20,588 nucleotides of DNA, from the IMG/VR virus record IMGVR_UViG_2531839584_000015; one strand, written 5' to 3'. Under the pieces are notes generated by a model, which saw only the letters and a program-made list of their open reading frames with translations, was not told the origin of the DNA and searched no databases. Each line of letters opens with the position of its first letter. Position 1 is the stretch's first letter. This DNA comes from a virus. Its lineage: Duplodnaviria > Heunggongvirae > Uroviricota > Caudoviricetes. Positions 1 through 20,588 of this stretch are shown here, piece by piece. Made by a program: the position numbers and the translations under genes.

Positions 1-123
1 CCAGAACAATGGGCGCAGGCCGGGCGACTAATTGCATCAGGAGTTCCTCGCCAGAAGGTGGCGATCATTTATGATGTTGGCGTATCGACTTTGTATAAGA
101 AGTTTCCGGTCGGAGATAAATGA
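1..123 (+). pseudogene. 3' end of Pin/Gin/Hin-family serine DNA invertase remnant, cut by the window edge (same sequence as 19174..19296)
   Basis: Window starts inside the reading frame that ends ...KKFPVGDK with TGA at 121..123; identical to the 3' end of the ORF at 18790..19296. Confidence 0.7.
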
Positions 124-203
124 AACCGTAGCACGTCGTATGCAAGAACGTGCCACGGCTGGCTGATAAGCTTGTAAAAATATTGAACAGGGAGTGGAGC
201 ATT

Positions 204-851
204 CTATGAAGCTAATTTGTTTAATTTCATTTGTAGTGACTTTACTTCTTGGTCGATAATGTCGAATCCCTTATTGACAGCATCTCTTAGCTCTGCATCA
301 ATATTTTTTATCCCTTGAGCATAATCTACCATTACATTTATTTTTGCATCATGTAATCTTTTATACATGGTTTTATCTTTGTTATTGTCTGCCATGCCAA
401 TAAGGATTTTTTCATAATCCTCAATGAGTTTGTTGTTTCCTTTAAATGATTGTATTAATGAGCGTGAATATGTGTATATGTTAATTATTGAGTCTCTAGC
501 AGAATCATTTAGTTTTGCAATGACATTCGCATTTTGCTCATAGAATGTGAAATTATCATCCCCTACAGGGAATGTGAGAATCAACATTTGTCCCGGTTTT
601 ATATTATCAATGTGTGTTTTCATCCTTTTATTATATAAATTGATTAGGGTGAAAACTTCTCCCTTAACTCCTTTTAATACTGAAAGTTGTAATTCAAGGG
701 ATTCTCTTTCTGTCTCTACTTTAGACAGCTTAGCTTGTTGGGTGACTCCTTTTAGGGTAAACCATCCGCCAATAAGAGTACCAACTAGAGCTGTGAGGGA
801 GGAGGATAACCATCCAGGTATGCTATTTAAAAGATTACTAAATTCACTCAT
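204..851 (-). CDS. Hypothetical protein, 215 aa, with predicted N-terminal transmembrane helix and coiled-coil; AT-rich cargo gene
   Basis: Intact ORF in track. Hydrophobic stretch IPGWLSSSLTALVGTLIGGWFTL near the N-terminus, then a charged heptad-like segment. AT-rich codon usage unlike the backbone. No family recognised from memory. Confidence 0.55.
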   Translation of the reverse strand: MSEFSNLLNSIPGWLSSSLTALVGTLIGGWFTLKGVTQQAKLSKVETERESLELQLSVLKGVKGEVFTLINLYNKRMKTHIDNIKPGQMLILTFPVGDDNFTFYEQNANVIAKLNDSARDSIINIYTYSRSLIQSFKGNNKLIEDYEKILIGMADNNKDKTMYKRLHDAKINVMVDYAQGIKNIDAELRDAVNKGFDIIDQEVKSLQMKLNKLAS

Positions 852-909
852 TATAAGTACTCGCTAATATTGAACGATATATATATCAAATTATTATAAA
901 ACTCGTCAG

Positions 910-1344
910 CTACTGGAGAAGGCTACCTGAACTTCGAACTATTCCTGCATCCATATAGTTGATGGTCTTCTGGAGCTCTTCGATTAGGGCAACAGCTTTT
1001 GCTCGAGAAATGCATATTAGTTGATCCGGAAATTCTTGTAAGGGCCAGTTTGGTATACAGGCCATGTTATCAGTGAAGGATGCAGACAAGTAAACTTCAT
1101 TGGTAACCAGAGAATAGCTTACCTCAAAATTGGTGAGTTCCGGCAAACTGCTAACGTTTGACTCTTTTCTGCGCATAATATTATCCATGACTGTAATTAT
1201 GTACAGGTGATGGTCTTCAATTTCGAAGAGGGAGTCAAGGGGGAGTCTCAAATGAACCGTTATAGAAAAGGGGGGGATCTTTGTGTTGCTGAACTTATGC
1301 AAAATTTTTTTGCACCATAAATCCAACAACACATTCAATAACAC
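910..1344 (-). CDS. Hypothetical protein, up to 144 aa; start uncertain (track start is GTG at 1344; in-frame ATG at 1188 would give about 92 aa)
   Basis: ORF in track lies immediately upstream of, and on the same strand as, 204..851 (58-bp gap), so a two-gene operon is likely. The 5' part contains a C7 homopolymer (G7 on + strand, 1270..1276) and promoter-like AT-rich sequence, so the N-terminal extension may not be coding. Confidence 0.4.
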   Translation of the reverse strand: MLLNVLLDLWCKKILHKFSNTKIPPFSITVHLRLPLDSLFEIEDHHLYIITVMDNIMRRKESNVSSLPELTNFEVSYSLVTNEVYLSASFTDNMACIPNWPLQEFPDQLICISRAKAVALIEELQKTINYMDAGIVRSSGSLLQ

Positions 1345-1647
1345 ATTGCTGTATCACTATGAAAATAAATGTGTTTTTATTTGATTTCACACATATCACA
1401 ATTGATGCATTTTTTAGTGATTAGTAAAGACATTTCAATGGATTACCGTTAAATCATTTTAAAATCAGTAAGTTGTATCGAGTTTGTATGCTTTACTGTC
1501 ATTAACTTACTGTATGTTGATCCAGTGTATTTAACCTTGATAAACTCAGTCCAGCAACACAAAACCGCAACACATTGCATTTTGTCCCGTAGAAAAGACT
1601 TGTATGTGTGAGCTTGTTTTCTGCGCCTACGCAGATAAGGATTGAGA

Positions 1648-3045
1648 ATGCCGCGCACTGTAACACATAATCCGGATAGCCCCAATAATGACGATGTTTT
1701 AGCCGCATCTGAAAAATGGGACGCCTGTAAACCCCCCTATACCAGCGCACACATGAAAATCTGTGTTGCTGCCGCCAAAATCATCCTCGCTGCTTCCGGC
1801 GTGGCTCGCCGTTCCAAATACGAAAAAGAGAACTATCTCCGTATCGATTTCAGCAAAGCCGGTAAGGTTACATTTTACGCCGAGTTTCCAAAAAAGATGG
1901 GCCTCAAGGGTAAAAAGCTCGGCGAGTGGCCGGAGCTCGCTATCCAGCTGGCGCGCGAAAAAGCGCTAGGTATGGCTGACGGTGGCTTGCGGGCAGAGTC
2001 CGTACATGCAGCGCTGGAAATGTACCGGGATGACCTCAAAGCCAAAGTCGCCCGGCAGAAGCTGAGCCCGGACAGTTTCACAACCTACGGGGTGCGTATC
2101 GACCGGATTAAAGCAACGTTCGGCGAGCGTGAGGTGTTCAGCGACGTAACATACAATCGGCTGGTGGAAGTGCTGGACGAGTGGATCGCCACTCGCTCGA
2201 ACAATAACGCCCTGGAGTTGTTTGCCGAGCTCCGTCGGTTCTGGAAGTTCTGCGCACCTACTCTTTGTAACGGTCGCAATGTTGCTGCCAGTCTGCCAGA
2301 TGATTATGTTTCCTCCCGCGTACAGAAACCCACCCCCACACGGCTTTTTACCGATATTGAGTCAATCGCCCGGCTCTGGCTCAATGTTGCCGCCTGCACC
2401 TCTGTACACCAGAAGAATGCTGTTCGCTTCATGATCATCACCGGCGTTCGTCCGATTAATGTCCATAACCTGCGCTGGGACTACGTTCACGAGGAGACTG
2501 GCGAAATTGTTTATCCTGAAGGGGTTATCGGCATGCGAGGGGCTATGAAAACACAAAAGGCTTTCCCCCTGCCAATAACGCCGGAGATCCGGCGGATTAT
2601 CGACGAGCAGAAAGCATGGCGTGATTCAGTTCCTGAGTGCAACAGGGATTATGTATTTTTGCAGCCGCGTGATCCAATGCAGCCATTTTCAAAACGATCA
2701 CTGGATAAGCTAGTGAAAACATACAGCCCGGATGGGGCTGTAAAAGGAATAAAACATGATGGGACTGTTAAAGGGAAAGACGGTGCATTTAATACGATGT
2801 GCCGTAAATTCCTTAAGAGCAATGTTATTGCCTTGATGAAGGAAAGAGGCTATTCCCGATCAGACCGAAGGGAAATCAGCCTCCTTTGCCTTCACCACTC
2901 CAGCAAGTCAGATGACCCGATGGCAGAACATTACGACTTTTCTGATGAGATTTTGCAGGAAGAGATTGCGTTAAAGCGCGAAGCTTTCGAGGCTCACGAG
3001 CGGAGCATACTTGCGCAGGTGGCATTGCTACGGCGGCGAGGGTAA
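1648..3045 (+). CDS. Tyrosine-type site-specific recombinase (phage integrase)
   Basis: ORF 1642..3045; ATG at 1648 is preceded by TAAGGA (1636..1641). C-terminal region has a catalytic-domain-like layout (R...H-x-x-R...Y: GVRPINVHNLRWDYV, LLCLHHSSKSD, AEHYDF). Confidence 0.8.
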   Translation: MPRTVTHNPDSPNNDDVLAASEKWDACKPPYTSAHMKICVAAAKIILAASGVARRSKYEKENYLRIDFSKAGKVTFYAEFPKKMGLKGKKLGEWPELAIQLAREKALGMADGGLRAESVHAALEMYRDDLKAKVARQKLSPDSFTTYGVRIDRIKATFGEREVFSDVTYNRLVEVLDEWIATRSNNNALELFAELRRFWKFCAPTLCNGRNVAASLPDDYVSSRVQKPTPTRLFTDIESIARLWLNVAACTSVHQKNAVRFMIITGVRPINVHNLRWDYVHEETGEIVYPEGVIGMRGAMKTQKAFPLPITPEIRRIIDEQKAWRDSVPECNRDYVFLQPRDPMQPFSKRSLDKLVKTYSPDGAVKGIKHDGTVKGKDGAFNTMCRKFLKSNVIALMKERGYSRSDRREISLLCLHHSSKSDDPMAEHYDFSDEILQEEIALKREAFEAHERSILAQVALLRRRG

Positions 3046-3242: not shown

Positions 3243-4636
3243 GCTATACCTCTCTTTTTCATGGCATCGAGCAGGATGTCCTGCACTGTTCGTTTTGAGT
3301 TGCGCCGCTCCATCACCATTTCGTCCATAGTGTCGGCAGCAATAATGTGGTGAATAAATACCGGACGATTGTGTCCGGCCTGTATCTGCCTGGTGGGGCC
3401 GATACGTTCAATAATTTGCTGATATTGCTCCAGGTCCCACCAGTGTGAGAAAAATACCAGTATATTTCCGCCGTCTTGCATGTTCAGGCCGTGGCCCGCG
3501 CTGGCTGGGTGTGCAAAGAGAACAGGAATCTTTCCGGAATTCCAGTCGCGCAGTGTCTGTGGATCCTGGTCGAGGTGACGACCGCGAGGGAATGCTTTAA
3601 GCAAGCGTTCAAGATCGTGTTTCCAGTGATAAGCAACCAGCACAGGTGCGCCAGCTGCTTCGGTCAGTATGCTGTCCAGCGCCTGTAGTTTGGTGTCATG
3701 CAGTTCTGACCAACTTCCGGTGTCGTCTGTGTATACTGCGCCACTGGCGATTTGAAGACACTTCAGTGTCTTTGCCGCGGCGTTCGGTGCTTCGATGCCT
3801 TCGCCATTCAGCTCGAGGAACATTTCCTTTTCCATTTCACGATACTGCTGACGGGCCTTCGGCGGCATATCCACGCGGATTACGTTATGGATGGGGTCTT
3901 TGATATCGAACCAGTCGGCCGCATCTAGCGAGAGGGTCACATCGGCTAATGCTCGCTGTATTTCACCCTGTGAGTGAGCAAAAGGCTCCAGTTTAGTCCA
4001 GCTCTGTCCCGGAAACTGTATCGAGTTGAACCAGCGTGAGGTAAACGCACCGTAAGTGCGCCCGAGACGTTGCCCTTGGTCCACAAACCACGATTGTCCC
4101 CACAAATCTACCAGGCCGTTCGGTGCTGGCGTACCGGTGAGATTTATCCAGCGCCGGACATACTTATGCGCCACTTTGCCCAGTGCCGCCGCGCGCTTAC
4201 CACCACCTCGCAGCCGGAAGGATTTTAGCCGGGTGCTTTCATCTGGAATGACAATACCGAACGGCCATCGTTCTCCCAATTCTTCAACCAGCCAGACAAG
4301 GTTATCGTAGTTGATGGTGAACACGCTTGCGTTGCTGTTCGCCAGCGCCGTAGAGCGCGCTTTGGCATTACCAACAATCGGCTGCACCTCGATATTGCGC
4401 AAATGCCCCCACTTCACTGCTTCATCCGGCCAGGTGTTTGCTGCAACACGTAGCGGCGCGAGGACCAGTGCGGGGCGTGTTTCTGCCCCTGCCATAAAAA
4501 GATCTTCCAGCGCAGTGAGCGTTGCCACGGTTTTACCCATTCCCATACCTGCCCAGATGTTGCAGCGCATAATGTCGATTTGATGATTGATGATGAGATC
4601 TTGGTAGGGGTGAGGTGAAAATATAGCATAGTCCAT
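3239..4636 (-). CDS. SNF2-family (DEAD/DEAH-like) DNA helicase, phage replication
   Basis: Walker A GMGKT, motif II region IVIPDESTRLKS (DE..RLK as in SNF2 proteins), C-terminal helicase domain. RBS GGAGA upstream of ATG at 4636. Confidence 0.75.
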   Translation of the reverse strand: MDYAIFSPHPYQDLIINHQIDIMRCNIWAGMGMGKTVATLTALEDLFMAGAETRPALVLAPLRVAANTWPDEAVKWGHLRNIEVQPIVGNAKARSTALANSNASVFTINYDNLVWLVEELGERWPFGIVIPDESTRLKSFRLRGGGKRAAALGKVAHKYVRRWINLTGTPAPNGLVDLWGQSWFVDQGQRLGRTYGAFTSRWFNSIQFPGQSWTKLEPFAHSQGEIQRALADVTLSLDAADWFDIKDPIHNVIRVDMPPKARQQYREMEKEMFLELNGEGIEAPNAAAKTLKCLQIASGAVYTDDTGSWSELHDTKLQALDSILTEAAGAPVLVAYHWKHDLERLLKAFPRGRHLDQDPQTLRDWNSGKIPVLFAHPASAGHGLNMQDGGNILVFFSHWWDLEQYQQIIERIGPTRQIQAGHNRPVFIHHIIAADTMDEMVMERRNSKRTVQDILLDAMKKRGIA

Positions 4637-4703: not shown

Positions 4704-5582
4704 ATGACCTCAGCTTATACAGATGTCCAGCAAGAAGAAAATATTACTGATAAATTAGTTGTTAAATATGATGGTCCCGCACTAGCAGATCATAAAATAG
4801 ATTTGGATGTTTTAACTGAGTCATTGAATGGACTAAACAACTTGCTTAAAGAAGTTAATTTGGTTGTCAATGGCACTAGTGAGTGTATTAATGTTGAGGT
4901 TGAGCCTTTTAAGGAAGGCTCATTTGAGTATTTGATTGATGTTATTCAAAATCCACTTGACCATTTGAATATATTAAGCATTATTGGGCTTGGAGGTACA
5001 ACTGCACTCGCAGCAGGAAATACTCTCATTGACTTAATTCGTCAGATCAATGGTAGGCAAATAAAACGGTTGACTTTAACAGCGGAAGGAGACTGTAAAA
5101 TAGTTATGGATGATGGTGAGGAAATTATAGCCCCGTCATATTTCCGGCCTTTACTTGCCTCACCAAGCATACGCAAATCCTTATCGAAGTTAATTCATAA
5201 TCCTTTGCAAAAGGAAGGATACGAATCGCTTAAAATTTCAACTCAACAGGGGGTTGAGCTGATTAAGGTGCACGAAGATAATATTGAACCGTTCAGATAT
5301 AGGCGCGTTCCTGTAGTGCAGTCCTTGTCTGAAAGGGTGATTGAAGAGGCTCTAATCACATTTTTGACTATTCATAAGGATAAAAACACAGGCTGGCGAG
5401 TCAACTATGGCGATGACACAATCAGCGTGTCTATAGAAGATACTGAGTTCTTACAACGTGTTAGTACGGGAAGAGAACCTGGTGTTTTTAGTGATGCTTA
5501 CTGCGTTGATTTGCTCGTCCGTGAGAACTTGAATTCGCTGGACAAAACGTACATAGTTGTTAAAGTACACGGCATCTTATAG
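4704..5582 (+). CDS. Hypothetical soluble protein, 292 aa; first gene of AT-rich three-gene cassette
   Basis: Intact ORF with AAAGGAA RBS 7 nt upstream of ATG. A hand count of a 60-nt sample gave about 32% G+C, against about 58% in the neighbouring helicase gene. Opposite strand to the surrounding replication operon. No family recognised. Confidence 0.6.
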   Translation: MTSAYTDVQQEENITDKLVVKYDGPALADHKIDLDVLTESLNGLNNLLKEVNLVVNGTSECINVEVEPFKEGSFEYLIDVIQNPLDHLNILSIIGLGGTTALAAGNTLIDLIRQINGRQIKRLTLTAEGDCKIVMDDGEEIIAPSYFRPLLASPSIRKSLSKLIHNPLQKEGYESLKISTQQGVELIKVHEDNIEPFRYRRVPVVQSLSERVIEEALITFLTIHKDKNTGWRVNYGDDTISVSIEDTEFLQRVSTGREPGVFSDAYCVDLLVRENLNSLDKTYIVVKVHGIL

Positions 5583-11817: not shown

Positions 11818-12720
11818 TTAACCCTCCAGTGCTTTTTCAGCCAGGGTGATTACTTCAGCGAGATTTTCATCCGTTACTTCACCAAGTTTCCTGGCTCCCT
11901 GTTTTTCCAGAATTGCAATAGCTTCTGCCCGGTAACCCCCTTTTGCTAACTGGAGGATCAACCCTTCAGCTTGTTTGCGTAGTGCCGCGAAATCAATTGT
12001 ATGGTCATCTTTGGCGTCATTATTCTGGCTGGAATTTGCTGCGTCTCTGCGTGCAAATTCTTCCTGCAGCTGAAGGTACTCAACACGGTTGATCTCGATA
12101 TGGCCTTTTTTAAGCATCTCGTTCAACTTGCGTAAGGTGTGGAGTTCACTGGCTGCTGTGCCGGATACATTTTTGACGTAAAACGGCCCCGTGCGTTCTC
12201 CATCTTTGTTACTGGCCTTTTTCGGCTTAACTTCATCACGCCCATCTGCAGGTGCATCAAGTAGTTGCTCGGCAAAAGCACGTCGCTCGCCGATGGTTGG
12301 CAGGTCGTCCCAGAACTTAAGAATGTTACGGGACAGGTCCAGAAGAGCGGGTTTATGCAGTGCCCTGGCTCGTTTGACGCCCTGCAATGCGCTGTCGAGA
12401 GCATCAATCTGAACTACTCGTTTATCGCCTTCAGCATCACGGTAGGCAACAGCACGTTGCAGCATGTCTTCTGTGATAGGGGTGGCTACCGGGTAGAAAC
12501 CAGCCAGTGCGATAACGTCGCTGAACTCCAGATCATCCAGTGTCATTGCCGCTGACATATTTTCAGTTTCAGTTGCTGTATCCCGACATTCCTGCACTCG
12601 TGAAATCGTGTCAGGATGCATAACAATACCTGATGCCATCGTGCGGATAAGACGTTCAAGCAGCGCATTATGTTGTGCCAGAAGTTGATTATTAAGTTCG
12701 AGACTGGTTTCTAAACTCAT
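11818..12720 (-). CDS. Hypothetical phage protein, 300 aa, acidic
   Basis: ORF in track, tightly packed in the operon: 2-bp gap to DUF2800 and ATGA overlap with the upstream small ORF. No family recognised. Confidence 0.5.
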
Positions 12721-12866
12721 ACTGTGGTCCTCGCTACAAGGAGAATGAAAGTGATGATCAGACCGAGCGCAGTGGCAACGGCCAGACCGGTCATCAAATC
12801 GAAGTTTTTACGGCGATAACGGAGAACATCGCGCCCCGTCAGTCGATAGAAGTGTTCAGGTTTCAT
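12717..12866 (-). CDS. Small hydrophobic protein, 49 aa (not in ORF track)
   Basis: Hand translation of the minus strand gives [54 protein letters not shown] lies upstream of the ATG at 12866, and the stop overlaps the ATG of the 300-aa gene (ATGA). Confidence 0.4.
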   Translation of the reverse strand: MKPEHFYRLTGRDVLRYRRKNFDLMTGLAVATALGLIITFILLVARTTV

Positions 12867-12924
12867 CGGTTGTATTCCTTTTTTCATATCGGGGAGCGCG
12901 CTGTTGCGAGTGCGCTTTCAGACA

Positions 12925-12951
12925 TAAAAAAGCCCGTCACTTGCGGCGGGC
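12925..12951 (-). terminator. Putative intrinsic terminator inside the leftward early operon
   Basis: On the minus strand, GCCCG-(10 nt)-CGGGC hairpin followed by TTTTTT, between the zinc-finger gene and the downstream replication genes. Confidence 0.4.
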
Positions 12952-12982
12952 AAAGACTACACACAGCAATTACATGGATGAT

Positions 12983-13177
12983 TCAGTTGGTATTGTGCGT
13001 ACGTGGTACCACAAGGTTGAAGCGGACACGCCAGTGCGTTGCAATGGTATGCAGGAAAGCACCACATCCAGGGCAGTGCTCATAACATTCGTTGATTTGG
13101 TATCGTTTTGGCTTTGGTGTCTGAAGCTGTGTTTGGCAAGCAGGGCATTCACCTTTGAGCGGTTTATACGTTTTCAC
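12983..13177 (-). CDS. Small Cys4 zinc-finger protein, 64 aa; first gene of the leftward early operon
   Basis: CPAC...(17 aa)...CPGC arrangement. GTG start at 13177 with AGGAAA RBS upstream. Confidence 0.5.
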   Translation of the reverse strand: MKTYKPLKGECPACQTQLQTPKPKRYQINECYEHCPGCGAFLHTIATHWRVRFNLVVPRTHNTN

Positions 13178-13460
13178 GCCGTTTCCTCATTCAGTTCACT
13201 TTGGTGGTTCGGCGGCTTCGACTTGTATCAGTAGACAGTGCTTCGCCGCACCCCAAAGGGAACTTACTGACCCGTATTGCCGACATCCTGTCCCGCCACG
13301 GTCCCGACGCATGGTTTAGAGTCGCGCCGTTCGACTTGTGGCTAAAGATACAATTTGAGTTGTATTGTGTAAACCACAAATGTGGTATTTTGTGGGGTGT
13401 GAATACTACTTTATTGATATTTAAGTGAATTTAATTTGTAAGACTTTACAAATGGGGTAA

Positions 13461-13480
13461 GGGAGGCTGTTACGCCTCCC
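13461..13480 (-). terminator. GC-rich hairpin just downstream of the repressor gene
   Basis: GGGAGGC-(6 nt)-GCCTCCC, a 7-bp stem, lying 20-40 nt past the cI-like stop on the minus strand. U-tract is imperfect. Confidence 0.3.
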
Positions 13481-13499
13481 GATATTTACGGTGGGAATA

Positions 13500-14123
13500 C
13501 TAACGTTTACGGCGGTAAATACGGTGTTCGATCATTACACCTATGATCTGTAAGTTCATATCTGCACTACGAAAAATAGGGTAATCAGGATTTAGGGGGA
13601 TTAATTCAAAGTCGTCGATGCCGATTCCTAATGGACGGTATTTTTTAAATGTAGCTTCGTGACCGTCGTTTTTGGCGACAACAAACTCCCCTGGTGCAGG
13701 ACATAGATCAGGATCGATGATAACAATGTCTCCTTCTTTAAACTCTGGTTGCATGCTGTCGCCATCAATACGTAATGCGAAGCATGTTTCTGGAATGTCA
13801 GAGTCTGCCAAAATATATTCAAATTCCCCTGTCAGATCTGTTATGTCTCTTGCTTCTGTAAGCTCTCCTGCCTGAACGTAACTTAATATAGGTATGCGTC
13901 TGGTACTTATCTCCGCGAGAGGCATAATATTTTTACCGTTCAGTAGCCAGTCTGGGCTACATTTCAAGGCCTTAGCCAGATCCAGAAGATTGCGCGGCTT
14001 TCTGGTTCGTCCACTTTCGATGGATTCTATGGATTGTTGGCTAACCCCTGCAGAATTCGCTACTTCCACTTGAGTCATTCCTAATTCCAAACGACGTGCT
14101 TTAAAACGGGCTGCGAGAGACAT
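13500..14123 (-). CDS. cI-like phage repressor (XRE-type HTH + LexA-like S24 peptidase domain)
   Basis: HTH LGMTQVEVANSAGVSQQSIESIE; Ala-Gly cleavage site (VQAGEL); Ser/Lys dyad context (GDSMQPEF, VVAKNDG). Start taken at ATG 14123 (MSLAARF...) with AAGGA RBS; the track ORF extends 17 codons further upstream. Confidence 0.8.
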   Translation of the reverse strand: MSLAARFKARRLELGMTQVEVANSAGVSQQSIESIESGRTRKPRNLLDLAKALKCSPDWLLNGKNIMPLAEISTRRIPILSYVQAGELTEARDITDLTGEFEYILADSDIPETCFALRIDGDSMQPEFKEGDIVIIDPDLCPAPGEFVVAKNDGHEATFKKYRPLGIGIDDFELIPLNPDYPIFRSADMNLQIIGVMIEHRIYRRKR

Positions 14124-14243
14124 GGGATTAGTCCTTCTGGGTTGTATTAATGTGTATACCCACATTAAAAACAATTTTTGTTGTATTTGACAAACCTCGT
14201 TTGTTGTTGCTAAATACCACTAAAATTGTATGAGGTGAAAGCA
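14124..14243. promoter_or_regulatory. Divergent cI/cro promoter-operator region
   Basis: Perfect inverted repeat TTAATGTG-N6-CACATTAA at 14147..14168. TTGACA at 14187..14192, followed 18 bp later by TAAATA, faces the cro-like gene. Confidence 0.5.
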
Positions 14244-14456
14244 ATGACCTTAGCGACCCGAGTAAAAGAACGACGTAAAGAACTCAAAATGACGCAAGTT
14301 ACGTTGGCTGAGCTCACAGGAGTGAGCCAGCAGGCAATAAACAGAATTGAAAGTGGTGTTATTGCTCGGCCACGTTATCTTCTTGAAATGTCTATAGCAT
14401 TGGATTGCGACCCTAATTGGCTGTTGTATGGCTCACAAAACGATAAAAAGGCTTAA
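14244..14456 (+). CDS. Cro-like XRE-family HTH regulator
   Basis: LKMTQVTLAELTGVSQQAINRIESG HTH. ATG at 14244 has GAGGTGA 5 nt upstream. Divergent from the cI-like gene; stop lies 3 bp before the primase start. Confidence 0.75.
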   Translation: MTLATRVKERRKELKMTQVTLAELTGVSQQAINRIESGVIARPRYLLEMSIALDCDPNWLLYGSQNDKKA

Positions 14457-14459
14457 CCC

Positions 14460-16646
14460 ATGTCCGATAGCAAACCATGGGGAGCTACGCCTGATGAGTG
14501 GTTTCATTTCGACCTGGTATTGGGGAGAACTGAGCATCTTCTCCCAGTTGTATGTAACCCCGGTGCGACCATATCCCCTGATAGTAAACTGAAAGCGCTG
14601 GGCAAGACGCCAAGTCGCTATAACCGGGACCGCCAGGTCACCGGTATTGCTCAATGGACCGGGTATGTTGTTACTGAGCATGATTTTGCCCGCTGGTCGA
14701 ATGAACCGGATTATGGCATCTGCGTGCGTACAGGCCATGGCTGGCTGGCGCTGGACTGCGATAGCGAAGATGAAGACATTCAGGCAGATATTCGCAAAAC
14801 GCTTGTGCAACTTCTGGGGGAGTTGCCGCCGCGACGCTGGCGAGCAAACAGTAATAAGTGTCTGTATCTGCTGGCCGTTGATGGTGATTTCCGTAAGCGT
14901 ATCCATCGCCTGGCGGGGGATATGGGCATTATCGAGTTGCTGGCGAACGGGCAGCAGTTCGTTGCCTGTGGTACGCACAGCAGCGGCGCGCGTATTGAAT
15001 GGGACGGTGGTTTGCCGGATGAACCTCCGGCTATTACTGGTGAGCAGCTTGAAACGCTGTGGCAGCGCCTGGCTGAACAACTCCCTGTGTCGGTAACCAC
15101 CGAAGCGGGCAACACGAAGATGCGCGACCGATCAGCATTCACGCCCGGCGCGACGGATGATACAGCTGAATATCTTGATGCCAATGGCTGGACGCTGCTG
15201 GATGGCGCAAATGGTGAACGATATATCCGCTGTCCGTTTGAAGACGGCCACAGTAGCGGGGGCGATCCAACAAGCACAGCTTATTTTCCTGCGGGAACCG
15301 CGGGCTTTGAGCAGGGGCATTTTAAATGCCTGCATGCCAGTTGTGCGCATCGTGATGACGGAGATTTCCTTAATGCCATCGGGATCCGCAACGACGATTT
15401 CGAAGATCTGACCAGCACCGAAGTGGCGGAACCTTTACCGCTGCCTGCTTTCGAGCGTGATAAATGGGGGCGTATCGAGGCAACCATCAGCAACGCAGCC
15501 AAAGCAGTAGTACGCCCTGATTTTGTGGACATCGATATTCGCTTTGACCAGTTCCGCGACGAAATCATGTTTGCCCCTGCAGGATCCGGACAATGGCGAG
15601 CATTCACCGATGCGGATTATGCGCGCCTGCGCATCACGATGGAAAAGCGGGGATTTAAACCTGTTGGTCGTGAACTTATTCGCGATGTGGTGTTACTTGC
15701 AGCCGATGAACAACCATTCGATTCAGCGATCACCTGGCTGAACGGGCTGGAGTGGGATGGCGTGCCGCGCATCGAATGTTTCTACCATACGCACTTCGGT
15801 ACAGCCAACACGCCTTATACCCGTGCGGTGTCTATGTACATGTGGACCGCGTTGGCGGGGCGAGTACTGGAGCCAGGCATCAAAGCGGATATGGTGCCGA
15901 TCCTCGTTGGTCCGCAGGGCTGCGGTAAGTCTTCCGGAGTGGAGGCACTGAGCCCTGATCCTGCGTTTTTTACTGAAATCTCTTTTGCCGAAAAAGACGA
16001 TGATCTCGCTCGAAAAATGCGTGGTCGGCTGGTGGCAGAGATTGGTGAACTGCGCGGACTTAATACCAAAGAGCTGGAGTCAATCAAAGCGTTTGTGACA
16101 CGTACTCACGAAAACTGGATCCCGAAATACCGGGAGTTCGCCACCCAGTTTCCTCGTCGCCTGGTGTTCGTTGGTACCACCAATGAGGACGAATTCCTTG
16201 CGGACAAGACTGGTAACCGTCGCTGGCTCCCCGTGGAAGTGTCGAAAGTCGACGTGAAAGCGATAAAAAGAGATCTCCTTTTACTTTGGGCTGAGGCTCG
16301 TGAGGTGTTTCAGCGTCTGGGGGGTATCCAGTTCCGTGAGGCTGAACAACTGGCAGCGAGTGTCCATGAACAGTACACCATCAAGGATGCTTGGCTTGAA
16401 ACGGTAGAGAAATGGCTCGACACGCCAGACCTGATGACTAATGAACTTCCGCGAAATTGCGAATTTTTACGCGCAAGTGATGTTTTGCGTGATGCGATTG
16501 GGCTAAATCCTGACCGCATCGGAAAACGCGAAGAAATGCGAATTAGTAATGTTTTGCAAAATTGCGGGTATAAGCGTGCCCAAAGGCGAATTGGGGGGAA
16601 AAAATGCAAGGTTTGGGAACCGCTGGAACCACGCGGAACCACCTAG
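14460..16646 (+). CDS. Replication initiator: primase-polymerase (Prim-Pol) N-terminal domain + zinc-binding region + VirE/P4-type P-loop NTPase
   Basis: 728 aa. Walker A GPQGCGKSS in the C-terminal half. Cys/His cluster CPFEDGHSSGG...HFKCLHASCAH. N-terminal acidic catalytic-like segment LALDCDSEDED. Operonic with cro. Confidence 0.7.
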   Translation: MSDSKPWGATPDEWFHFDLVLGRTEHLLPVVCNPGATISPDSKLKALGKTPSRYNRDRQVTGIAQWTGYVVTEHDFARWSNEPDYGICVRTGHGWLALDCDSEDEDIQADIRKTLVQLLGELPPRRWRANSNKCLYLLAVDGDFRKRIHRLAGDMGIIELLANGQQFVACGTHSSGARIEWDGGLPDEPPAITGEQLETLWQRLAEQLPVSVTTEAGNTKMRDRSAFTPGATDDTAEYLDANGWTLLDGANGERYIRCPFEDGHSSGGDPTSTAYFPAGTAGFEQGHFKCLHASCAHRDDGDFLNAIGIRNDDFEDLTSTEVAEPLPLPAFERDKWGRIEATISNAAKAVVRPDFVDIDIRFDQFRDEIMFAPAGSGQWRAFTDADYARLRITMEKRGFKPVGRELIRDVVLLAADEQPFDSAITWLNGLEWDGVPRIECFYHTHFGTANTPYTRAVSMYMWTALAGRVLEPGIKADMVPILVGPQGCGKSSGVEALSPDPAFFTEISFAEKDDDLARKMRGRLVAEIGELRGLNTKELESIKAFVTRTHENWIPKYREFATQFPRRLVFVGTTNEDEFLADKTGNRRWLPVEVSKVDVKAIKRDLLLLWAEAREVFQRLGGIQFREAEQLAASVHEQYTIKDAWLETVEKWLDTPDLMTNELPRNCEFLRASDVLRDAIGLNPDRIGKREEMRISNVLQNCGYKRAQRRIGGKKCKVWEPLEPRGTT

Positions 16647-17974: not shown

Positions 17975-18794
17975 GGCACTGTTGCAAAGTTAGCGATGAG
18001 GCAGCCTTTTGTCTTATTCAAAGGCCTTACATTTCAAAAACTCTGCTTACCAGGCGCATTTCGCCCAGGGGATCACCATAATAAAATGCTGAGGCCTGGC
18101 CTTTGCGTAGTGCACGCATCACCTCAATACCTTTGATGGTGGCGTAAGCCGTCTTCATGGATTTAAATCCCAGCGTGGCGCCGATTATCCGTTTCAGTTT
18201 GCCATGATCGCATTCAATCACGTTGTTCCGGTACTTAATCTGTCGGTGTTCAACGTCAGACGGGCACCGGCCTTCGCGTTTGAGCAGAGCAAGCGCGCGA
18301 CCATAGGCGGGCGCTTTATCCGTGTTGATGAATCGCGGGATCTGCCACTTCTTCACGTTGTTGAGGATTTTACCCAGAAACCGGTATGCAGCTTTGCTGT
18401 TACGACGGGAGGAGAGATAAAAATCGACAGTGCGGCCCCGGCTGTCGACGGCCCGGTACAGATACGCCCAGCGGCCATTGACCTTCACGTAGGTTTCATC
18501 CATGTGCCACGGGCAAAGATCGGAAGGGTTACGCCAGTACCAGCGCAGCCGTTTTTCCATTTCAGGCGCATAACGCTGAACCCAGCGGTAAATCGTGGAG
18601 TGATCGACATTCACTCCGCGTTCAGCCAGCATCTCCTGCAGCTCACGGTAACTGATGCCGTATTTGCAGTACCAGCGTACGGCCCACAGAATGATGTCAC
18701 GCTGAAAATGCCGGCCTTTGAATGGGTTCATGTGCAGCTCCATCAGCAAAAGGGGATGATAAGTTTATCACCACCGACTATTTGCAACAGTGCC
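17975..18794 (-). mobile_element. IS26 (IS6 family), complete 820-bp copy
   Basis: 14-bp terminal inverted repeats GGCACTGTTGCAAA at 17975..17988 and the reverse complement at 18781..18794. Internal transposase matches Tnp26. Flanking 8-mers differ (CGCAAATC vs ACGTAATG), so there is no target-site duplication. Confidence 0.95.
18027..18731 (-). CDS. tnp26: IS26 transposase Tnp26 (DDE), 234 aa
   Basis: Protein MNPFKGRHFQRDIILWAVRWYCKYGISYRELQEMLAERGVNVDHSTIYRWVQRYAPEMEK... is the canonical IS26 transposase. The track ORF starts 6 codons upstream (MLMELH). Confidence 0.95.
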   Translation of the reverse strand: MNPFKGRHFQRDIILWAVRWYCKYGISYRELQEMLAERGVNVDHSTIYRWVQRYAPEMEKRLRWYWRNPSDLCPWHMDETYVKVNGRWAYLYRAVDSRGRTVDFYLSSRRNSKAAYRFLGKILNNVKKWQIPRFINTDKAPAYGRALALLKREGRCPSDVEHRQIKYRNNVIECDHGKLKRIIGATLGFKSMKTAYATIKGIEVMRALRKGQASAFYYGDPLGEMRLVSRVFEM

Positions 18795-19296
18795 ACGTAA
18801 TGCGCTGAACTGTGCAGGATGCGAGCTGATTTTTGAAGACAAGATAAGCGGCACAAAGTCCGAAAGGCCGGGACTGAAAAAACTGCTTAGGACATTATCG
18901 GCAGGTGACACTCTGGTTGTCTGGAAGCTGGACCGACTGGGGCGCAGTATGCGGCATCTTGTCGTGCTGGTGGAGGGGTTGCGCGAACGAGGCATTAACT
19001 TTCGTAGTCTGACGGATTCAATTGATACCAGCACACCGATGGGGCGTTTTTTCTTTCATGTGATGGGTGCCCTGGCTGAAATGGAACGAGAACTGATTGT
19101 TGAACGAACAAAAGCTGGACTGGAAGCTGCTCGCGCACAGGGACGAATTGGTGGACGTCGTCCCAAACTTACACCAGAACAATGGGCGCAGGCCGGGCGA
19201 CTAATTGCATCAGGAGTTCCTCGCCAGAAGGTGGCGATCATTTATGATGTTGGCGTATCGACTTTGTATAAGAAGTTTCCGGTCGGAGATAAATGA
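18795..19296 (+). pseudogene. Pin/Gin/Hin-family serine DNA invertase, 5'-truncated by IS26 (catalytic serine region missing)
   Basis: Translation RNALNCAGCELIFEDKISGTKSERPGLKKLL...GRFFFHVMGALAEMERELIVERTKAGL... aligns from about residue 19 of Pin/Gin. Homology starts exactly at the IS26 boundary. The N-terminal MLIGYVRVST segment with the active-site Ser is absent. Confidence 0.8.
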
Positions 19297-19376
19297 AACC
19301 GTAGCACGTCGTATGCAAGAACGTGCCACGGCTGGCTGATAAGCTTGTAAAAATATTGAACAGGGAGTGGAGCATT

Positions 19377-20024
19377 CTATGAAGCTAATTTGTTTAATTT
19401 CATTTGTAGTGACTTTACTTCTTGGTCGATAATGTCGAATCCCTTATTGACAGCATCTCTTAGCTCTGCATCAATATTTTTTATCCCTTGAGCATAATCT
19501 ACCATTACATTTATTTTTGCATCATGTAATCTTTTATACATGGTTTTATCTTTGTTATTGTCTGCCATGCCAATAAGGATTTTTTCATAATCCTCAATGA
19601 GTTTGTTGTTTCCTTTAAATGATTGTATTAATGAGCGTGAATATGTGTATATGTTAATTATTGAGTCTCTAGCAGAATCATTTAGTTTTGCAATGACATT
19701 CGCATTTTGCTCATAGAATGTGAAATTATCATCCCCTACAGGGAATGTGAGAATCAACATTTGTCCCGGTTTTATATTATCAATGTGTGTTTTCATCCTT
19801 TTATTATATAAATTGATTAGGGTGAAAACTTCTCCCTTAACTCCTTTTAATACTGAAAGTTGTAATTCAAGGGATTCTCTTTCTGTCTCTACTTTAGACA
19901 GCTTAGCTTGTTGGGTGACTCCTTTTAGGGTAAACCATCCGCCAATAAGAGTACCAACTAGAGCTGTGAGGGAGGAGGATAACCATCCAGGTATGCTATT
20001 TAAAAGATTACTAAATTCACTCAT
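19377..20024 (-). CDS. Hypothetical membrane-anchored protein, 215 aa (second copy of 204..851)
   Basis: Protein identical to 204..851 in the ORF track; part of the terminal duplication. Confidence 0.55.
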   Translation of the reverse strand: MSEFSNLLNSIPGWLSSSLTALVGTLIGGWFTLKGVTQQAKLSKVETERESLELQLSVLKGVKGEVFTLINLYNKRMKTHIDNIKPGQMLILTFPVGDDNFTFYEQNANVIAKLNDSARDSIINIYTYSRSLIQSFKGNNKLIEDYEKILIGMADNNKDKTMYKRLHDAKINVMVDYAQGIKNIDAELRDAVNKGFDIIDQEVKSLQMKLNKLAS

Positions 20025-20082
20025 TATAAGTACTCGCTAATATTGAACGATATATATATCAAATTATTATAAAACTCGTCAG

Positions 20083-20517
20083 CTACTGGAGAAGGCTACC
20101 TGAACTTCGAACTATTCCTGCATCCATATAGTTGATGGTCTTCTGGAGCTCTTCGATTAGGGCAACAGCTTTTGCTCGAGAAATGCATATTAGTTGATCC
20201 GGAAATTCTTGTAAGGGCCAGTTTGGTATACAGGCCATGTTATCAGTGAAGGATGCAGACAAGTAAACTTCATTGGTAACCAGAGAATAGCTTACCTCAA
20301 AATTGGTGAGTTCCGGCAAACTGCTAACGTTTGACTCTTTTCTGCGCATAATATTATCCATGACTGTAATTATGTACAGGTGATGGTCTTCAATTTCGAA
20401 GAGGGAGTCAAGGGGGAGTCTCAAATGAACCGTTATAGAAAAGGGGGGGATCTTTGTGTTGCTGAACTTATGCAAAATTTTTTTGCACCATAAATCCAAC
20501 AACACATTCAATAACAC
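20083..20517 (-). CDS. Hypothetical protein, up to 144 aa (second copy of 910..1344)
   Basis: Protein identical to 910..1344; same start-site uncertainty. Confidence 0.4.
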   Translation of the reverse strand: MLLNVLLDLWCKKILHKFSNTKIPPFSITVHLRLPLDSLFEIEDHHLYIITVMDNIMRRKESNVSSLPELTNFEVSYSLVTNEVYLSASFTDNMACIPNWPLQEFPDQLICISRAKAVALIEELQKTINYMDAGIVRSSGSLLQ

Positions 20518-20588
20518 ATTGCTGTATCACTATGAAAATAAATGTGTTTTTATTTGATTTCACACATATCACAATTGATGCATTTTTT

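What the first reader, a model, noticed from the sequence alone, without database searches (positions are those of the whole stretch)
13178..13499. 322-bp structured non-coding region between repressor and early operon with 10-bp direct repeats and palindromes
This region holds no convincing ORF but contains TTCGACTTGT twice (13217..13226 and 13330..13339, 113 bp apart). It also has the palindromes CCACA-AA-TGTGG (13374..13385) and TTTGTAA-GACT-TTACAAA (13435..13452), and a GC-rich hairpin (13461..13480). It could hold the PL-type promoter and operators, a small RNA, or recombinase or initiator binding sites.
Basis: seen in the sequence. Interest (0 to 1): 0.45.

Follow-up and report, generated by a model that had tools for sequence, protein, structure and literature searches.

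The report
Early promoter with put antiterminator RNA
This stretch of an E. coli prophage holds the repressor-controlled leftward early promoter followed at once by a relative of phage HK022's put RNA, a transcript that grips RNA polymerase and makes it ignore terminators; this is a known device, here found unannotated in a different kind of phage.

Summary
The region is non-coding, and it works on the minus strand. After the stop codon of the cI/LexA-type repressor come six elements. (1) A conserved GC hairpin (13480..13461). (2) An AT-rich palindrome. (3) Two operators, OL2 13371-13388 and OL1 13348-13365, with the same motif as two operators at PR. (4) The PL promoter (-35 13373..13368, -10 13350..13345). 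(5) From about +1 (13338) to 13269, a 70-nt homologue of HK022 putL, the cis-acting antiterminator RNA. (6) A 72-nt long hairpin (13264..13193) ending just before the ribosome-binding site of an unannotated 64-aa zinc-ribbon ORF.

All 21 base pairs of the HK022 cryo-EM structure tested here are canonical in the window. Across 35 put sequences, 11 of those 21 pairs show compensatory changes. The first intrinsic terminator lies about 390 nt downstream of +1.

The other sits in the apical loop of the long hairpin. The pair is not conserved, and its statistical support is marginal.

Verdict: a new, unannotated member of a known kind. Interest is modest. The side observations (an RprA-like 3' end; cargo-bearing hairpins after put in related phages) are more unusual.

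The parts
13500..14123 (-). cI/LexA-type repressor gene (HTH_3 + Peptidase_S24, 207 aa). Its 3' end borders the finding.
   Evidence: Pfam HTH_3 1.1e-12 and Peptidase_S24 1.8e-21; PHROG 4 transcriptional repressor 3.6e-52; annotated 'LexA family protein' in RefSeq.
13461..13480 (-). GC-rich hairpin 20 nt after the repressor stop codon. It is the probable 3' end, terminator or insulator of the immunity transcript. It has a 7-bp stem and a 6-nt loop, and no canonical U tract.
   Evidence: -16.1 kcal/mol, z -5.05. In the 80%-identical Enterobacter plasmid-borne prophage the stem sequence differs (TGGAGGGT/ACCCTCCA) but the hairpin is kept. The terminator scan did not flag it because the U run is missing.
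13435..13452 (.). AT-rich palindrome TTTGTAA-GACT-TTACAAA between the hairpin and the operators. Its role is unknown (distal operator, other protein site, or weak second RNA hairpin).
   Evidence: Read. As RNA it folds at only -4.4 kcal/mol. In the Enterobacter homologue the outer arms change, but a palindrome GTAAAATTTTAC remains at the same place.
13371..13388 (.). Operator OL2 (AAACCA-N6-TGGTAT).
   Evidence: The pattern AWACMA-N6-TKGTWT has 4 matches in the window, all in the two regulatory regions, against 0.07 expected (the pattern was derived after seeing the sites). The site is 100% conserved in the Enterobacter homologue, while the adjacent repressor gene is about 80% identical.
13348..13365 (.). 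Operator OL1 (ATACAA-TTTGAG-TTGTAT, perfect half-sites). It overlaps the PL -10 hexamer and spacer, 23 bp centre-to-centre from OL2.
   Evidence: (repeat D1, inverted repeat I3). In the Enterobacter homologue the half-sites are unchanged and only the central spacer differs.
13345..13373 (-). PL promoter: -35 TTTACA (13373..13368), 17-nt spacer, -10 TATCTT (13350..13345). The inferred start is about 13338.
   Evidence: It is the only sigma-70-like hit on the minus strand in 12700-14500. It has the same -35 hexamer, the same 17-nt spacer and the same 11-nt distance from the -10 to CGAACGG as the annotated HK022/O276 pL. Window-type relatives keep a TAnnnT hexamer in the same register.
13269..13338 (-). 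putL-like antiterminator RNA, 70 nt. Helix A is 13336..13332 with 13324..13320. Helix B is 13329..13325 with 13309..13305 (pseudoknotted with helix A). The -10-like AACCAU is at +23..+28. Stem II is 13303..13269.
   Evidence: blastn 79% identity, E 3e-10 to HK022 putL, also to features annotated putL in HK75 and O276 and 'putL-like' in HK639. Covariance model built here: 91 bits (the window sequence was in the training set). All 21 tested pairs are canonical in the window. Alignment A2: 93.2% of cells paired against 49% or less in slid registers, and 11 of 21 pairs with compensatory change. The structure follows the cryo-EM model in PMC9378689.
13193..13264 (-). Post-put long hairpin ('hairpin III'): an imperfect duplex of about 20 bp closing a 27-nt apical loop.
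   Evidence: -29.9 kcal/mol, z -3.9. RNAalifold on 16 sequences from four lineages gives 17 pairs, 8 with compensatory changes (for example AGUUC/GAACU, AGUUU/AAACU, GGAAU/AUUCC). Most put-like loci have a stable hairpin 0-6 nt after put. E. coli mosaic boundaries at about 13341 and 13183 bracket put plus this hairpin as one unit.
12983..13188 (-). Ribosome-binding site GAGGA (13188..13184), GTG start (13177) and a 64-aa CxxC...CxxC zinc-ribbon ORF. It is the first gene of the left operon and is not annotated in RefSeq.
   Evidence: ORF list and sequence. Only sub-threshold Pfam zinc-finger hits and PHROG 4875 at 0.003. The same ORF follows the same leader in viral contigs L135, L139, L150 and L165.
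12926..12951 (-). First intrinsic terminator of the left operon (GCCCG...CGGGC + U6), about 390 nt downstream of +1. It is the obvious first target of put-modified polymerase.
   Evidence: Sequence. It aligns to the RprA terminator in the Rfam model. The scan missed it because the loop exceeds 8 nt.
14169..14231 (.). PR region with operators ORa (14169-14186) and ORb (14214-14231), flanking -35 TTGACA (14188-14193) and a -10-like TAAATA (14212-14217). These are the sister sites that identify OL1 and OL2.
   Evidence: The block 14165-14238 is almost invariant in the Enterobacter homologue.

Best explanation
The region is the left-hand control region of a temperate E. coli phage, and it is read on the minus strand.

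The immunity transcript (repressor gene) ends at a conserved GC hairpin. This probably keeps read-through from the immunity promoter out of what follows.

Next comes PL, a sigma-70 promoter bracketed by two 18-bp operators, OL2 and OL1. These are the same kind of site as the two operators at PR. In a lysogen the S24-type repressor should therefore shut PL, and it should release PL when it is cleaved after DNA damage.

Transcription starts at about 13338. The first 70 nt fold, on the polymerase, into an HK022-type put RNA. This consists of a pseudoknotted stem I (helices A and B, with the AACCAU -10-like pause element) and a bulged stem II.

By homology with HK022, this RNA binds the zinc-binding domain of the beta' subunit at the RNA exit channel. 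It stays with the elongation complex and makes the complex resistant to pausing and to terminators. No phage protein is needed for this.

The modified polymerase then reads through the intrinsic terminator at 12951..12926 into the roughly 11-kb left operon (DUF2800 nuclease, DUF2815, DNA polymerase, VRR-NUC, SNF2 helicase).

Between put and the ribosome-binding site of the first gene lies a conserved 72-nt imperfect hairpin. I infer that it is a processing or stabilising element, most likely an RNase III-type stem that uncouples put from the mRNA or tunes translation of the first gene, as the RNase III hairpin does in the lambda N leader.

Shown here: the sequence features, the homology, the conserved base-pairing, the shared operator motif and the downstream terminator. 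Inferred: repressor binding, the exact start point, antitermination activity, and the role of the third hairpin.
For: **Homology.** blastn of 13190-13350 (-) hits HK022 putL at 79% identity (E 3e-10). It also hits features annotated 'putL antiterminator RNA' in phages HK75 and O276, and 'putL-like antiterminator RNA' in HK639.

**Position.** The -35 hexamer, the 17-nt spacer and the 11-nt gap between the -10 and CGAACGG are the same as at HK022 pL.

**Structure.** The published cryo-EM pairing scheme was mapped on 35 distinct put sequences.
- 93.2% of cells are paired, against 25-49% when partners are slid by 1-3 columns.
- 11 of 21 pairs have changes on both sides. 0 of 500 shuffles reach the observed covariation score.
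- The window forms all 21 pairs. It differs from HK022 by compensatory swaps (A5-U17 to U-A, G38-C70 to C-G, C41-G66 to U-A).

**Functional residues** named in PMC9378689 are all present: A9, G35, G12.U32, U28, the NANNAT element at +23..+28, G42.U65, G43/A64 and C44/A63.

**Operators.** AWACMA-N6-TKGTWT occurs 4 times in 20.6 kb, against 0.07 expected. Two sites lie at PL and two at PR. All four are invariant in an Enterobacter homologue whose repressor gene has drifted to about 80% identity.

**Repressor.** HTH_3 + Peptidase_S24.

**Terminator target.** Stem plus U6 at 12951..12926.

**No N-type protein.** None was found among the first three left-operon ORFs.

**Hairpin III.** z = -3.9; 8 of 17 pairs are compensatory.

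**Family size.** The put 15-mer is found in at least 120 viral contigs. A strict 24-base pattern is found in 25 species-representative genomes, all Enterobacterales or Gilliamella.
Against: - Nothing here is experimental. No transcript ends, no repressor footprint and no read-through assay exist for this phage.
- Thermodynamic folding alone does not predict put (z = +0.63). This agrees with the literature statement that active put can be produced only by synthesis with host RNA polymerase, but it means the structure rests on homology and covariation.
- Helix B and much of stem I are invariant, so they carry no covariation signal.
- The bulged base in lower stem II is G rather than HK022's U68, whose deletion abolishes antitermination. 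The apex of stem II is one pair shorter.
- The operator motif was defined after looking at the sites.
- The GC hairpin after the repressor gene lacks a U tract, so calling it a terminator is weak.
- Only one put is present. None is found in the right operon, even in the complete CB9615 prophage, although the model does detect putR in HK022-type prophages. The phage therefore does not copy the full HK022 scheme.
- The function proposed for hairpin III is an analogy only.
Confidence: 0.85

Rival explanations
1. The put-like sequence is an inactive relic carried along by mosaic recombination. PL and its operators are real, but early-left transcription does not depend on RNA-mediated antitermination.
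For: Phage control regions are mosaics. E. coli genomes show recombination joints at about 13341 and 13183. The bulge base differs from HK022's U68, the stem II apex is shorter, and there is no second put in the right operon.
Against: All 21 tested pairs and all residues known to matter are intact, and the differences from HK022 are compensatory rather than random. The element keeps its exact register to the promoter and is followed by a strong terminator. The same put variant recurs in many viral contigs with different neighbours, which indicates selection. HK639, annotated with a single putL-like RNA, shows that one put per phage is a known arrangement.
Confidence: 0.07
2. The two TTCGACTTGT copies are DNA binding sites for a protein (integrase arm sites, replication initiator iterons, or a second regulator).
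For: An exact 10-mer occurs twice, 113 bp apart, and nowhere else in the window. Phage control regions often carry such sites.
Against: The chance of any 10-mer repeat in 322 bp is about 0.04-0.06, so the signal is weak. Copy 2 is the 5' strand of put helix A, which is explained by RNA pairing. Copy 1 lies in the loop of hairpin III. It is truncated by a 12-nt deletion in L104, L139 and L165, which keep the same flanks. In the Enterobacter homologue each copy carries a different mismatch. In other lineages the two motifs diverge independently. The integrase gene is 10 kb away (1642-3045) and the primase/replication gene lies on the other side of the immunity region.
Confidence: 0.03
3. The GC-rich part (13190-13340) encodes a small protein on one or the other strand.
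For: Mechanical ORFs of 54-75 codons exist on both strands. The plus-strand translation contains a protein-like stretch (read by eye).
Against: All three start with TTG. None matches a Pfam family. None is annotated in RefSeq. Relatives carry a 1-nt indel and variable inserts inside them. The variation is paired, not codon-periodic.
Confidence: 0.02
4. The leader is processed to release a stable trans-acting small RNA (put itself, or the hairpin III insert) that regulates host or phage mRNAs. This would be in addition to, or instead of, acting in cis.
For: A long imperfect duplex directly after put is conserved. In related phages the same position holds tRNA-like and 16S-like inserts, which suggests a slot from which structured RNAs are released. 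According to PMC9378689, put action does not need tethering through the transcript.
Against: No terminator or independent promoter delimits an sRNA gene inside 13178-13340. No Rfam match. The window's insert is only 27 nt of loop with no conserved seed across lineages beyond A(A)GYCGAAG. No expression data exist.
Confidence: 0.1

Closest known systems
Phage HK022 putL (polymerase-utilisation antiterminator RNA; cryo-EM structure PDB 7XUE, PMC9378689)
   Same: The position, directly at the start of the PL transcript with identical promoter-to-put spacing. About 79% sequence identity. The same pseudoknotted stem I and bulged stem II. The same residues at A9, G35, G12.U32 and U28, and the same AACCAU -10-like element. 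The same non-canonical middle of stem II. A terminator lies downstream, and no N-type protein is present.
   Different: Three stem positions are swapped in a compensatory way. The stem II apex is one pair shorter. The bulged base is G, not U68. The host phage is not a lambda-like genome in its replication module: it carries a DNA polymerase, DUF2800, DUF2815 and a VapE-domain protein in place of lambda-type replication genes, and it has no nun gene. There is no putR partner in the right operon. HK022 has a short U-rich hairpin after put instead of the 72-nt hairpin.
Phage HK639 'putL-like antiterminator RNA' (GenBank feature NC_016158 34187..34312; King et al. 2011, J Bacteriol 193:5784, cited in PMC9378689; paper not readable here)
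   Same: It is a single put-like element, found in the left operon only. The annotated 126-nt RNA covers the two put stems plus a further hairpin that ends just before the first gene's ribosome-binding site. This is the same three-part layout as in the window.
   Different: HK639's put lies about 75 nt downstream of its putative pL rather than at +1. Its third hairpin is about 36 nt and unrelated in sequence. Lower stem II has its bulge at another position.
Lambda OL/PL-nutL-N system
   Same: The gene order is the same: repressor gene, then operators overlapping a leftward early promoter, then an antitermination signal at the start of the transcript, then a terminator that must be passed. Two adjacent operators lie about 23-24 bp apart. 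(Lambda layout from established knowledge.)
   Different: The signal here is a self-sufficient RNA that acts on polymerase directly. It is not a boxA/boxB site read by N and Nus factors. No N homologue was found. Two operators were recognised, not three.
RNase III-sensitive hairpin in the lambda N leader, and the processing stems flanking 16S rRNA behind the rrn boxA antiterminator (established knowledge)
   Same: A long imperfect duplex sits between an antitermination signal and the first translated or mature product. In related phages the duplex encloses a structured RNA cargo.
   Different: There is no sequence similarity, and cleavage has not been tested. This is an analogy of layout only.

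Membership tests
HK022-type put antiterminator RNA | Lies in the early transcript of a temperate phage, on the transcribed strand, downstream of an early promoter | tested here: met
   It lies on the minus strand immediately after the only sigma-70-like promoter between the repressor gene and the left operon, with the same promoter-to-put spacing as HK022 pL.
HK022-type put antiterminator RNA | Detectable sequence homology to putL/putR | tested here: met
   79% identity over 85 nt, E 3e-10, to HK022, HK75 and O276 putL; 84% over 61 nt to HK639 putL-like. 22 alignment columns are invariant across 35 sequences, including putR.
HK022-type put antiterminator RNA | Two-stem fold: helix A (3-7 with 15-19), helix B (10-14 with 30-34), bulged stem II (36-72), as in the cryo-EM model | tested here: met
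   All 21 tested pairs are canonical in the window. Family-wide, 93.2% of cells are paired and 11 of 21 pairs have changes on both sides; slid registers reach 49% or less. Helix B is invariant and therefore uninformative.
HK022-type put antiterminator RNA | Residues shown by mutation or structure to matter: A9, G35, G12.U32, U28, the -10-like NANNAT at +23..+28, G42.U65, G43.A64, C44.A63, and an unpaired base in lower stem II | tested here: met
   All are identical in the window, except that the unpaired base is G instead of U68. An unpaired base is kept, but its identity differs.
HK022-type put antiterminator RNA | Terminators downstream in the same operon, and no phage-encoded N-type antiterminator | tested here: met
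   An intrinsic terminator lies at 12951..12926. The first three left-operon ORFs give no N-family hit in Pfam or PHROGs. Only these ORFs were tested.
HK022-type put antiterminator RNA | Promotes terminator read-through in cis, dependent on the beta' zinc-binding domain of host RNA polymerase | not testable with these tools
   This needs reporter assays in wild-type and rpoC mutant hosts, or in vitro transcription.
HK022-type put antiterminator RNA | Paired putL and putR sites, one per early operon (the HK022 arrangement) | tested here: not met
   The covariance model finds putR at 52-55 bits in four HK022-type prophage or phage stretches. It finds only one site in the window (next best 11 bits) and only one in the 32.7-kb CB9615 prophage stretch. 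This feature defines the HK022 scheme, not the RNA family; HK639 is annotated with a single site.
Lambda-type repressor/operator control of an early promoter | Repeated palindromic operators shared between the leftward and rightward promoters and overlapping the promoter hexamers, next to a cI-type repressor gene | tested here: met
   There are four 18-bp sites with the motif AWACMA-N6-TKGTWT, two at each promoter, and none elsewhere in 20.6 kb (0.07 expected). They are invariant in a diverged homologue. The repressor has HTH_3 + S24 domains. Binding itself was not tested.
Rfam families (any) | Match at or above a curated gathering score | tested here: not met
   The window has no match at gathering thresholds. 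Inside 13178-13499 there is no match even at E up to 10. The put family is described in the literature, but no Rfam model recognises it.

The most novel reading that the evidence does not exclude
The conserved long hairpin directly after put (13264..13193) is not just a spacer. It would be a processing stem that defines a 'cargo slot' in the early leader.

In related put-bearing phages the same clamp encloses 84-114-nt inserts. These include a tRNA-Ile-like element and a 47-nt copy of 16S rRNA helix 11. In this phage the leader transcript ends, if not antiterminated, in a mimic of the 3' half of the host sRNA RprA.

On this reading the put leader is a device that both antiterminates and delivers small host-mimicking RNAs early in induction. 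The repeated ACAAGUCGAA would be a remnant or a functional part of that cargo.
Probability: 0.2. Interest if true: 0.65.

Novelty: new member of a known kind. Interest (0 to 1): 0.35.

Why it matters
Put RNAs are the classic case of an RNA that reprograms RNA polymerase without any protein. Yet they are annotated in only a handful of phage records, and no Rfam model recognises them. Regions like this one are therefore left blank in hundreds of E. coli genomes.

This instance shows three things:
- The device is used outside the classical lambda-like genome type, here with a DNA polymerase/DUF2800/VapE replication module.
- It is used singly, in the left operon only.
- The family is widespread in prophages of Enterobacterales and Gilliamella.

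The 35-sequence alignment with compensatory changes gives natural-variation support for the pseudoknotted cryo-EM fold. It could also seed a curated RNA family.

Practically, the result identifies the promoter, the operators and the first terminator that control induction of a prophage found in pathogenic E. coli (O55:H7, ETEC). The conserved post-put hairpin and the RprA-like 3' end are leads for phage-host RNA interplay.

Tried and rejected
- **Rfam.** Scans of the whole window at gathering thresholds, and of 12850-13550 at E up to 10, found nothing inside the finding.
- **tRNA/tmRNA.** ARAGORN found none in the window.
- **Thermodynamic folding of the whole leader.** Neither strand folds significantly better than shuffles (z -1.05 and -0.65), and put alone gives z +0.63. 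Energy-based prediction would therefore have missed put; homology and covariation were needed.
- **megablast against phage and plasmid collections.** This gave only flank hits or one 80% plasmid hit. The sensitive blastn mode was needed to reach HK022.
- **King et al. 2011 (HK639).** The paper could not be read: not held under the first DOI tried (which was wrong) nor under its PMC id. What is said about it rests on GenBank annotation and on its citation in PMC9378689.
- **Strict operator ATACAA-N6-TTGTAT.** With up to 2 mismatches, the number of hits (3) is no more than chance by count (11 of 100 shuffles), although all three lie in the regulatory regions. With 3 mismatches it is uninformative. 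The degenerate motif is stronger but was defined post hoc.
- **TGTG...CACA palindrome at PR (14151-14164).** This was considered as a second operator type and rejected, because it is not conserved in the Enterobacter homologue.
- **A second put (putR).** Considered and rejected.
- **Coding ORFs in the region.** Considered and rejected.
- **The mEpimmI non-lambdoid phage group.** Considered as a relative; it uses N/nut and is not relevant.
- **Literature searches.** Searches for RprA-like prophage RNAs and for processing of put RNA found nothing specific.
Full report
**What the window is.** The stretch 12900-13600 is 99-100% identical to chromosomal prophages in 36 complete E. coli genomes, among them ETEC-2264 and O55:H7 CB9615. 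In CB9615 the prophage sits next to yfhL.

The gene order there is as follows:
- integrase;
- a leftward operon: SNF2 helicase, VRR-NUC, DNA polymerase, DUF2815, DUF2800;
- a LexA-family repressor;
- a divergent HTH (cro-like) gene;
- a VapE-domain gene;
- a Q antiterminator;
- lysis and structural genes.

In window coordinates the repressor (HTH_3 + Peptidase_S24) is 13500-14123 on the minus strand. The cro-like gene is 14244-14456 on the plus strand. The finding is therefore the DNA downstream of the repressor gene and upstream of the leftward early genes. This is the place where lambda keeps OL/PL.

**Checking the observation.**
- The 10-mer TTCGACTTGT occurs only at 13217-13226 and 13330-13339. 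However, the chance that some exact 10-mer repeats within 322 bp of this composition is about 0.04-0.06, so this alone is weak.
- Palindromes with arms of at least 7 are clearly enriched: 3 observed against 0.16 expected.
- The GC hairpin is very stable: -16.1 kcal/mol, z -5.
- The absence of a real ORF is supported by the RefSeq annotation gap, TTG-only mechanical ORFs with no Pfam match, and a 1-nt indel in close relatives.

**Promoter and operators.** The only sigma-70-like site on the minus strand between 12700 and 14500 is TTTACA-17-TATCTT at 13373..13345.

A repeat search linked this area to the PR region. Segment 13350-13386 resembles 14171-14207, and 13348-13366 is an inverted copy of 14213-14231.

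The common element is an 18-bp palindrome. The strict form ATACAA-N6-TTGTAT has three hits at up to 2 mismatches, all in the two control regions. The form AWACMA-N6-TKGTWT has four hits and none elsewhere, against 0.07 expected. That motif was written after seeing the sites.

| Operator | Coordinates | Position relative to promoter |
|---|---|---|
| OL1 | 13348-13365 | covers the -10 and spacer of PL |
| ORa | 14169-14186 | flanks TTGACA (14188-14193) of PR |
| ORb | 14214-14231 | flanks the -10-like TAAATA of PR |

An Enterobacter plasmid-borne prophage has a repressor gene only about 80% identical. It keeps all four sites unchanged, apart from the central spacer of OL1. It does not keep a TGTG...CACA palindrome at 14151-14164, which I had considered as a second operator type.

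**The put RNA.** E. coli genomes show that 13265-13349 recurs at about 80% identity in many otherwise different lambdoid prophages. It is always unannotated, and it always lies between the repressor gene and the first leftward gene.

Sensitive blastn against phage records then hit HK022 at 79% identity (E 3e-10). The same place is annotated 'putL: antiterminator RNA' in O276 and HK75, and 'putL-like antiterminator RNA' in HK639.

The -35 hexamer, the 17-nt spacer and the 11 nt between the -10 and CGAACGG are identical in layout to HK022 pL. This places +1 at about 13338 and put at 13338..13269.

I took the pairing scheme from the cryo-EM paper:
- A3-G7 pairs with C15-U19.
- C10-G14 pairs with C30-G34.
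- A9.G35 and G12.U32 are non-canonical pairs.
- C26-G29 is a bulged loop.
- Stem II carries three non-canonical pairs in its middle.
- U68 is unpaired.

I mapped this scheme on 35 distinct put sequences. These came from viral contigs that share a 15-mer (at least 120 contigs) or the window's stem II variant (61 contigs), plus HK022 putR.

The result:
- 93.2% of cells are paired, against 25-49% for slid registers.
- 11 of 21 pairs have changes on both sides.
- 0 of 500 shuffles reach the observed covariation score.

The window forms every one of the 21 pairs. It differs from HK022 by compensatory swaps in helix A and in lower and upper stem II. The residues singled out in the paper are all present: A9, G35, U28, and the AACCAU -10-like element proposed to cause a sigma-dependent pause. 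The unpaired base is G rather than U.

Energy-based folding does not find this structure. This fits the paper's remark that active put can be produced only by synthesis with host RNA polymerase.

A covariance model built from the alignment finds one site in the window (91 bits; next best 11 bits) and one in the 32.7-kb CB9615 stretch. The same model detects putR at 52-55 bits in four HK022-type phage or prophage stretches. This phage therefore has a left-operon put only, as HK639 is annotated to have.

**The target.** The first gene after the leader is an unannotated 64-aa zinc-ribbon ORF: GTG at 13177, ribosome-binding site GAGGA at 13188..13184. It is followed by a stem plus U6 terminator at 12951..12926, about 390 nt downstream of the start. 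The replication genes begin beyond it. No N-type protein turned up among the first left-operon ORFs.

**The third hairpin and the repeat.** Between put and the ribosome-binding site, 13264..13193 folds into a long imperfect hairpin: -29.9 kcal/mol, z -3.9.

Sixteen sequences from four lineages support 17 pairs, 8 of them with compensatory changes. The outermost helix switches between AGUUC/GAACU, AGUUU/AAACU and GGAAU/AUUCC. A stable hairpin starts 0-6 nt after put in most put-like loci. The 126-nt HK639 annotation also includes one. Recombination joints in E. coli genomes at about 13341 and 13183 bracket put plus this hairpin as a unit.

- One copy spans the base before the inferred start plus +1 to +9 of the transcript, and includes the 5' strand of helix A.
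- The other copy is the 3' end of the 27-nt apical loop of hairpin III.

Relatives with the same flanks have lost 12 nt of that loop (L104, L139, L165), which leaves only GUCGAA of the loop copy. The Enterobacter copy pair carries two different mismatches. In other lineages the loop motif is A(A)GYCGAAG while the put 5' end varies independently. I therefore treat the repeat as a by-product of two RNA elements, not as a pair of protein sites.

The role of hairpin III is inferred by analogy with the RNase III hairpin of the lambda N leader. That analogy rests on established knowledge and was not tested here.

**The upstream part.** The GC hairpin 13480..13461 lies 20 nt after the repressor stop codon. 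It is kept through sequence change in the Enterobacter homologue. It lacks a U tract on either strand, so 'terminator of the immunity transcript' is a reasonable reading but unproven. The AT palindrome 13435-13452 is only partly conserved, although a palindrome persists at that spot. I leave its role open.

**Comparison and verdict.** The region works like, and by the tests available is a member of, the HK022 put family, coupled to a lambda-style OL/PL. It departs from HK022 in four ways:
- the genome type of the host phage;
- a single put;
- the large post-put hairpin;
- small structural details.

Put-like RNAs in other phages were already reported (King 2011, cited). So this is a new, unannotated member of a known kind.

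A strict 24-base put pattern occurs in 25 species-representative genomes. All are Enterobacterales or Gilliamella.

Noticed in passing
window 12926-12971 (- strand); Rfam match 12922-13031: The 3' UTR and terminator of the first left-operon ORF mimic the 3' half of the host sRNA RprA. A 24-nt run, AAUUGCUGUGUGUAGUCUUUGCCC, matches the Rfam RprA consensus base for base and is followed by an RprA-like terminator. The match is 82.6% over 46 nt to the annotated rprA gene in 5421 of 5426 E. coli genomes. The Rfam RprA score is 48.2 bits, below the gathering score of 70. A literature search found no report of a prophage RprA mimic.
   Followed up: partly
L039 8159-8228 (-); L034; L092 4192-4238; also L094, L115, L116, L123, L125: In HK639-type viral contigs the hairpin directly after put is a clamp (GGAAUGUUUUG... 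/ ...CAAAGCAUUUC) that encloses 84-114-nt inserts. One insert is called tRNA-Ile(GAU) by ARAGORN. Another is a 47-nt copy of 16S rRNA helix 11 (SSU model positions 237-283, 37 bits, E 1e-7). Other contigs carry unrelated inserts in the same clamp. I know of no description of this 'cargo slot'.
   Followed up: partly
window 1-1415 and 19174-20588: The two ends of the window are identical over 1415 bp. The window is therefore a 19,173-bp unit read past its own start: a circular contig or a tandem copy.
   Followed up: partly
window 17990-18810; ORF 18027-18749 (-): An IS6/IS26-type transposase (DDE_Tnp_IS240, 2.5e-48) sits where the E. coli prophages have about 22 kb of lysis and structural genes. 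In ETEC-2264 the put region and the pinE-side end lie about 28 kb apart, against 5.5 kb here. The element in the window looks like an IS-associated deletion derivative without virion genes.
   Followed up: partly
window 12983-13177 (-): This 64-aa CxxC...CxxC zinc-ribbon ORF has a good ribosome-binding site and is the first gene of the left operon. It is not annotated in RefSeq. It has only sub-threshold family matches. It recurs behind the same leader in several viral contigs.
   Followed up: partly
L002, L003, L004 (E. coli prophages and a plasmid-borne prophage), about 4001-4078 and 5217-5404: HK022-type putL and putR are present but unannotated in ordinary lambdoid prophages, including one in an O111:H8 strain and one on a 179-kb plasmid. 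Put sites appear to be systematically missing from RefSeq annotation.
   Followed up: partly
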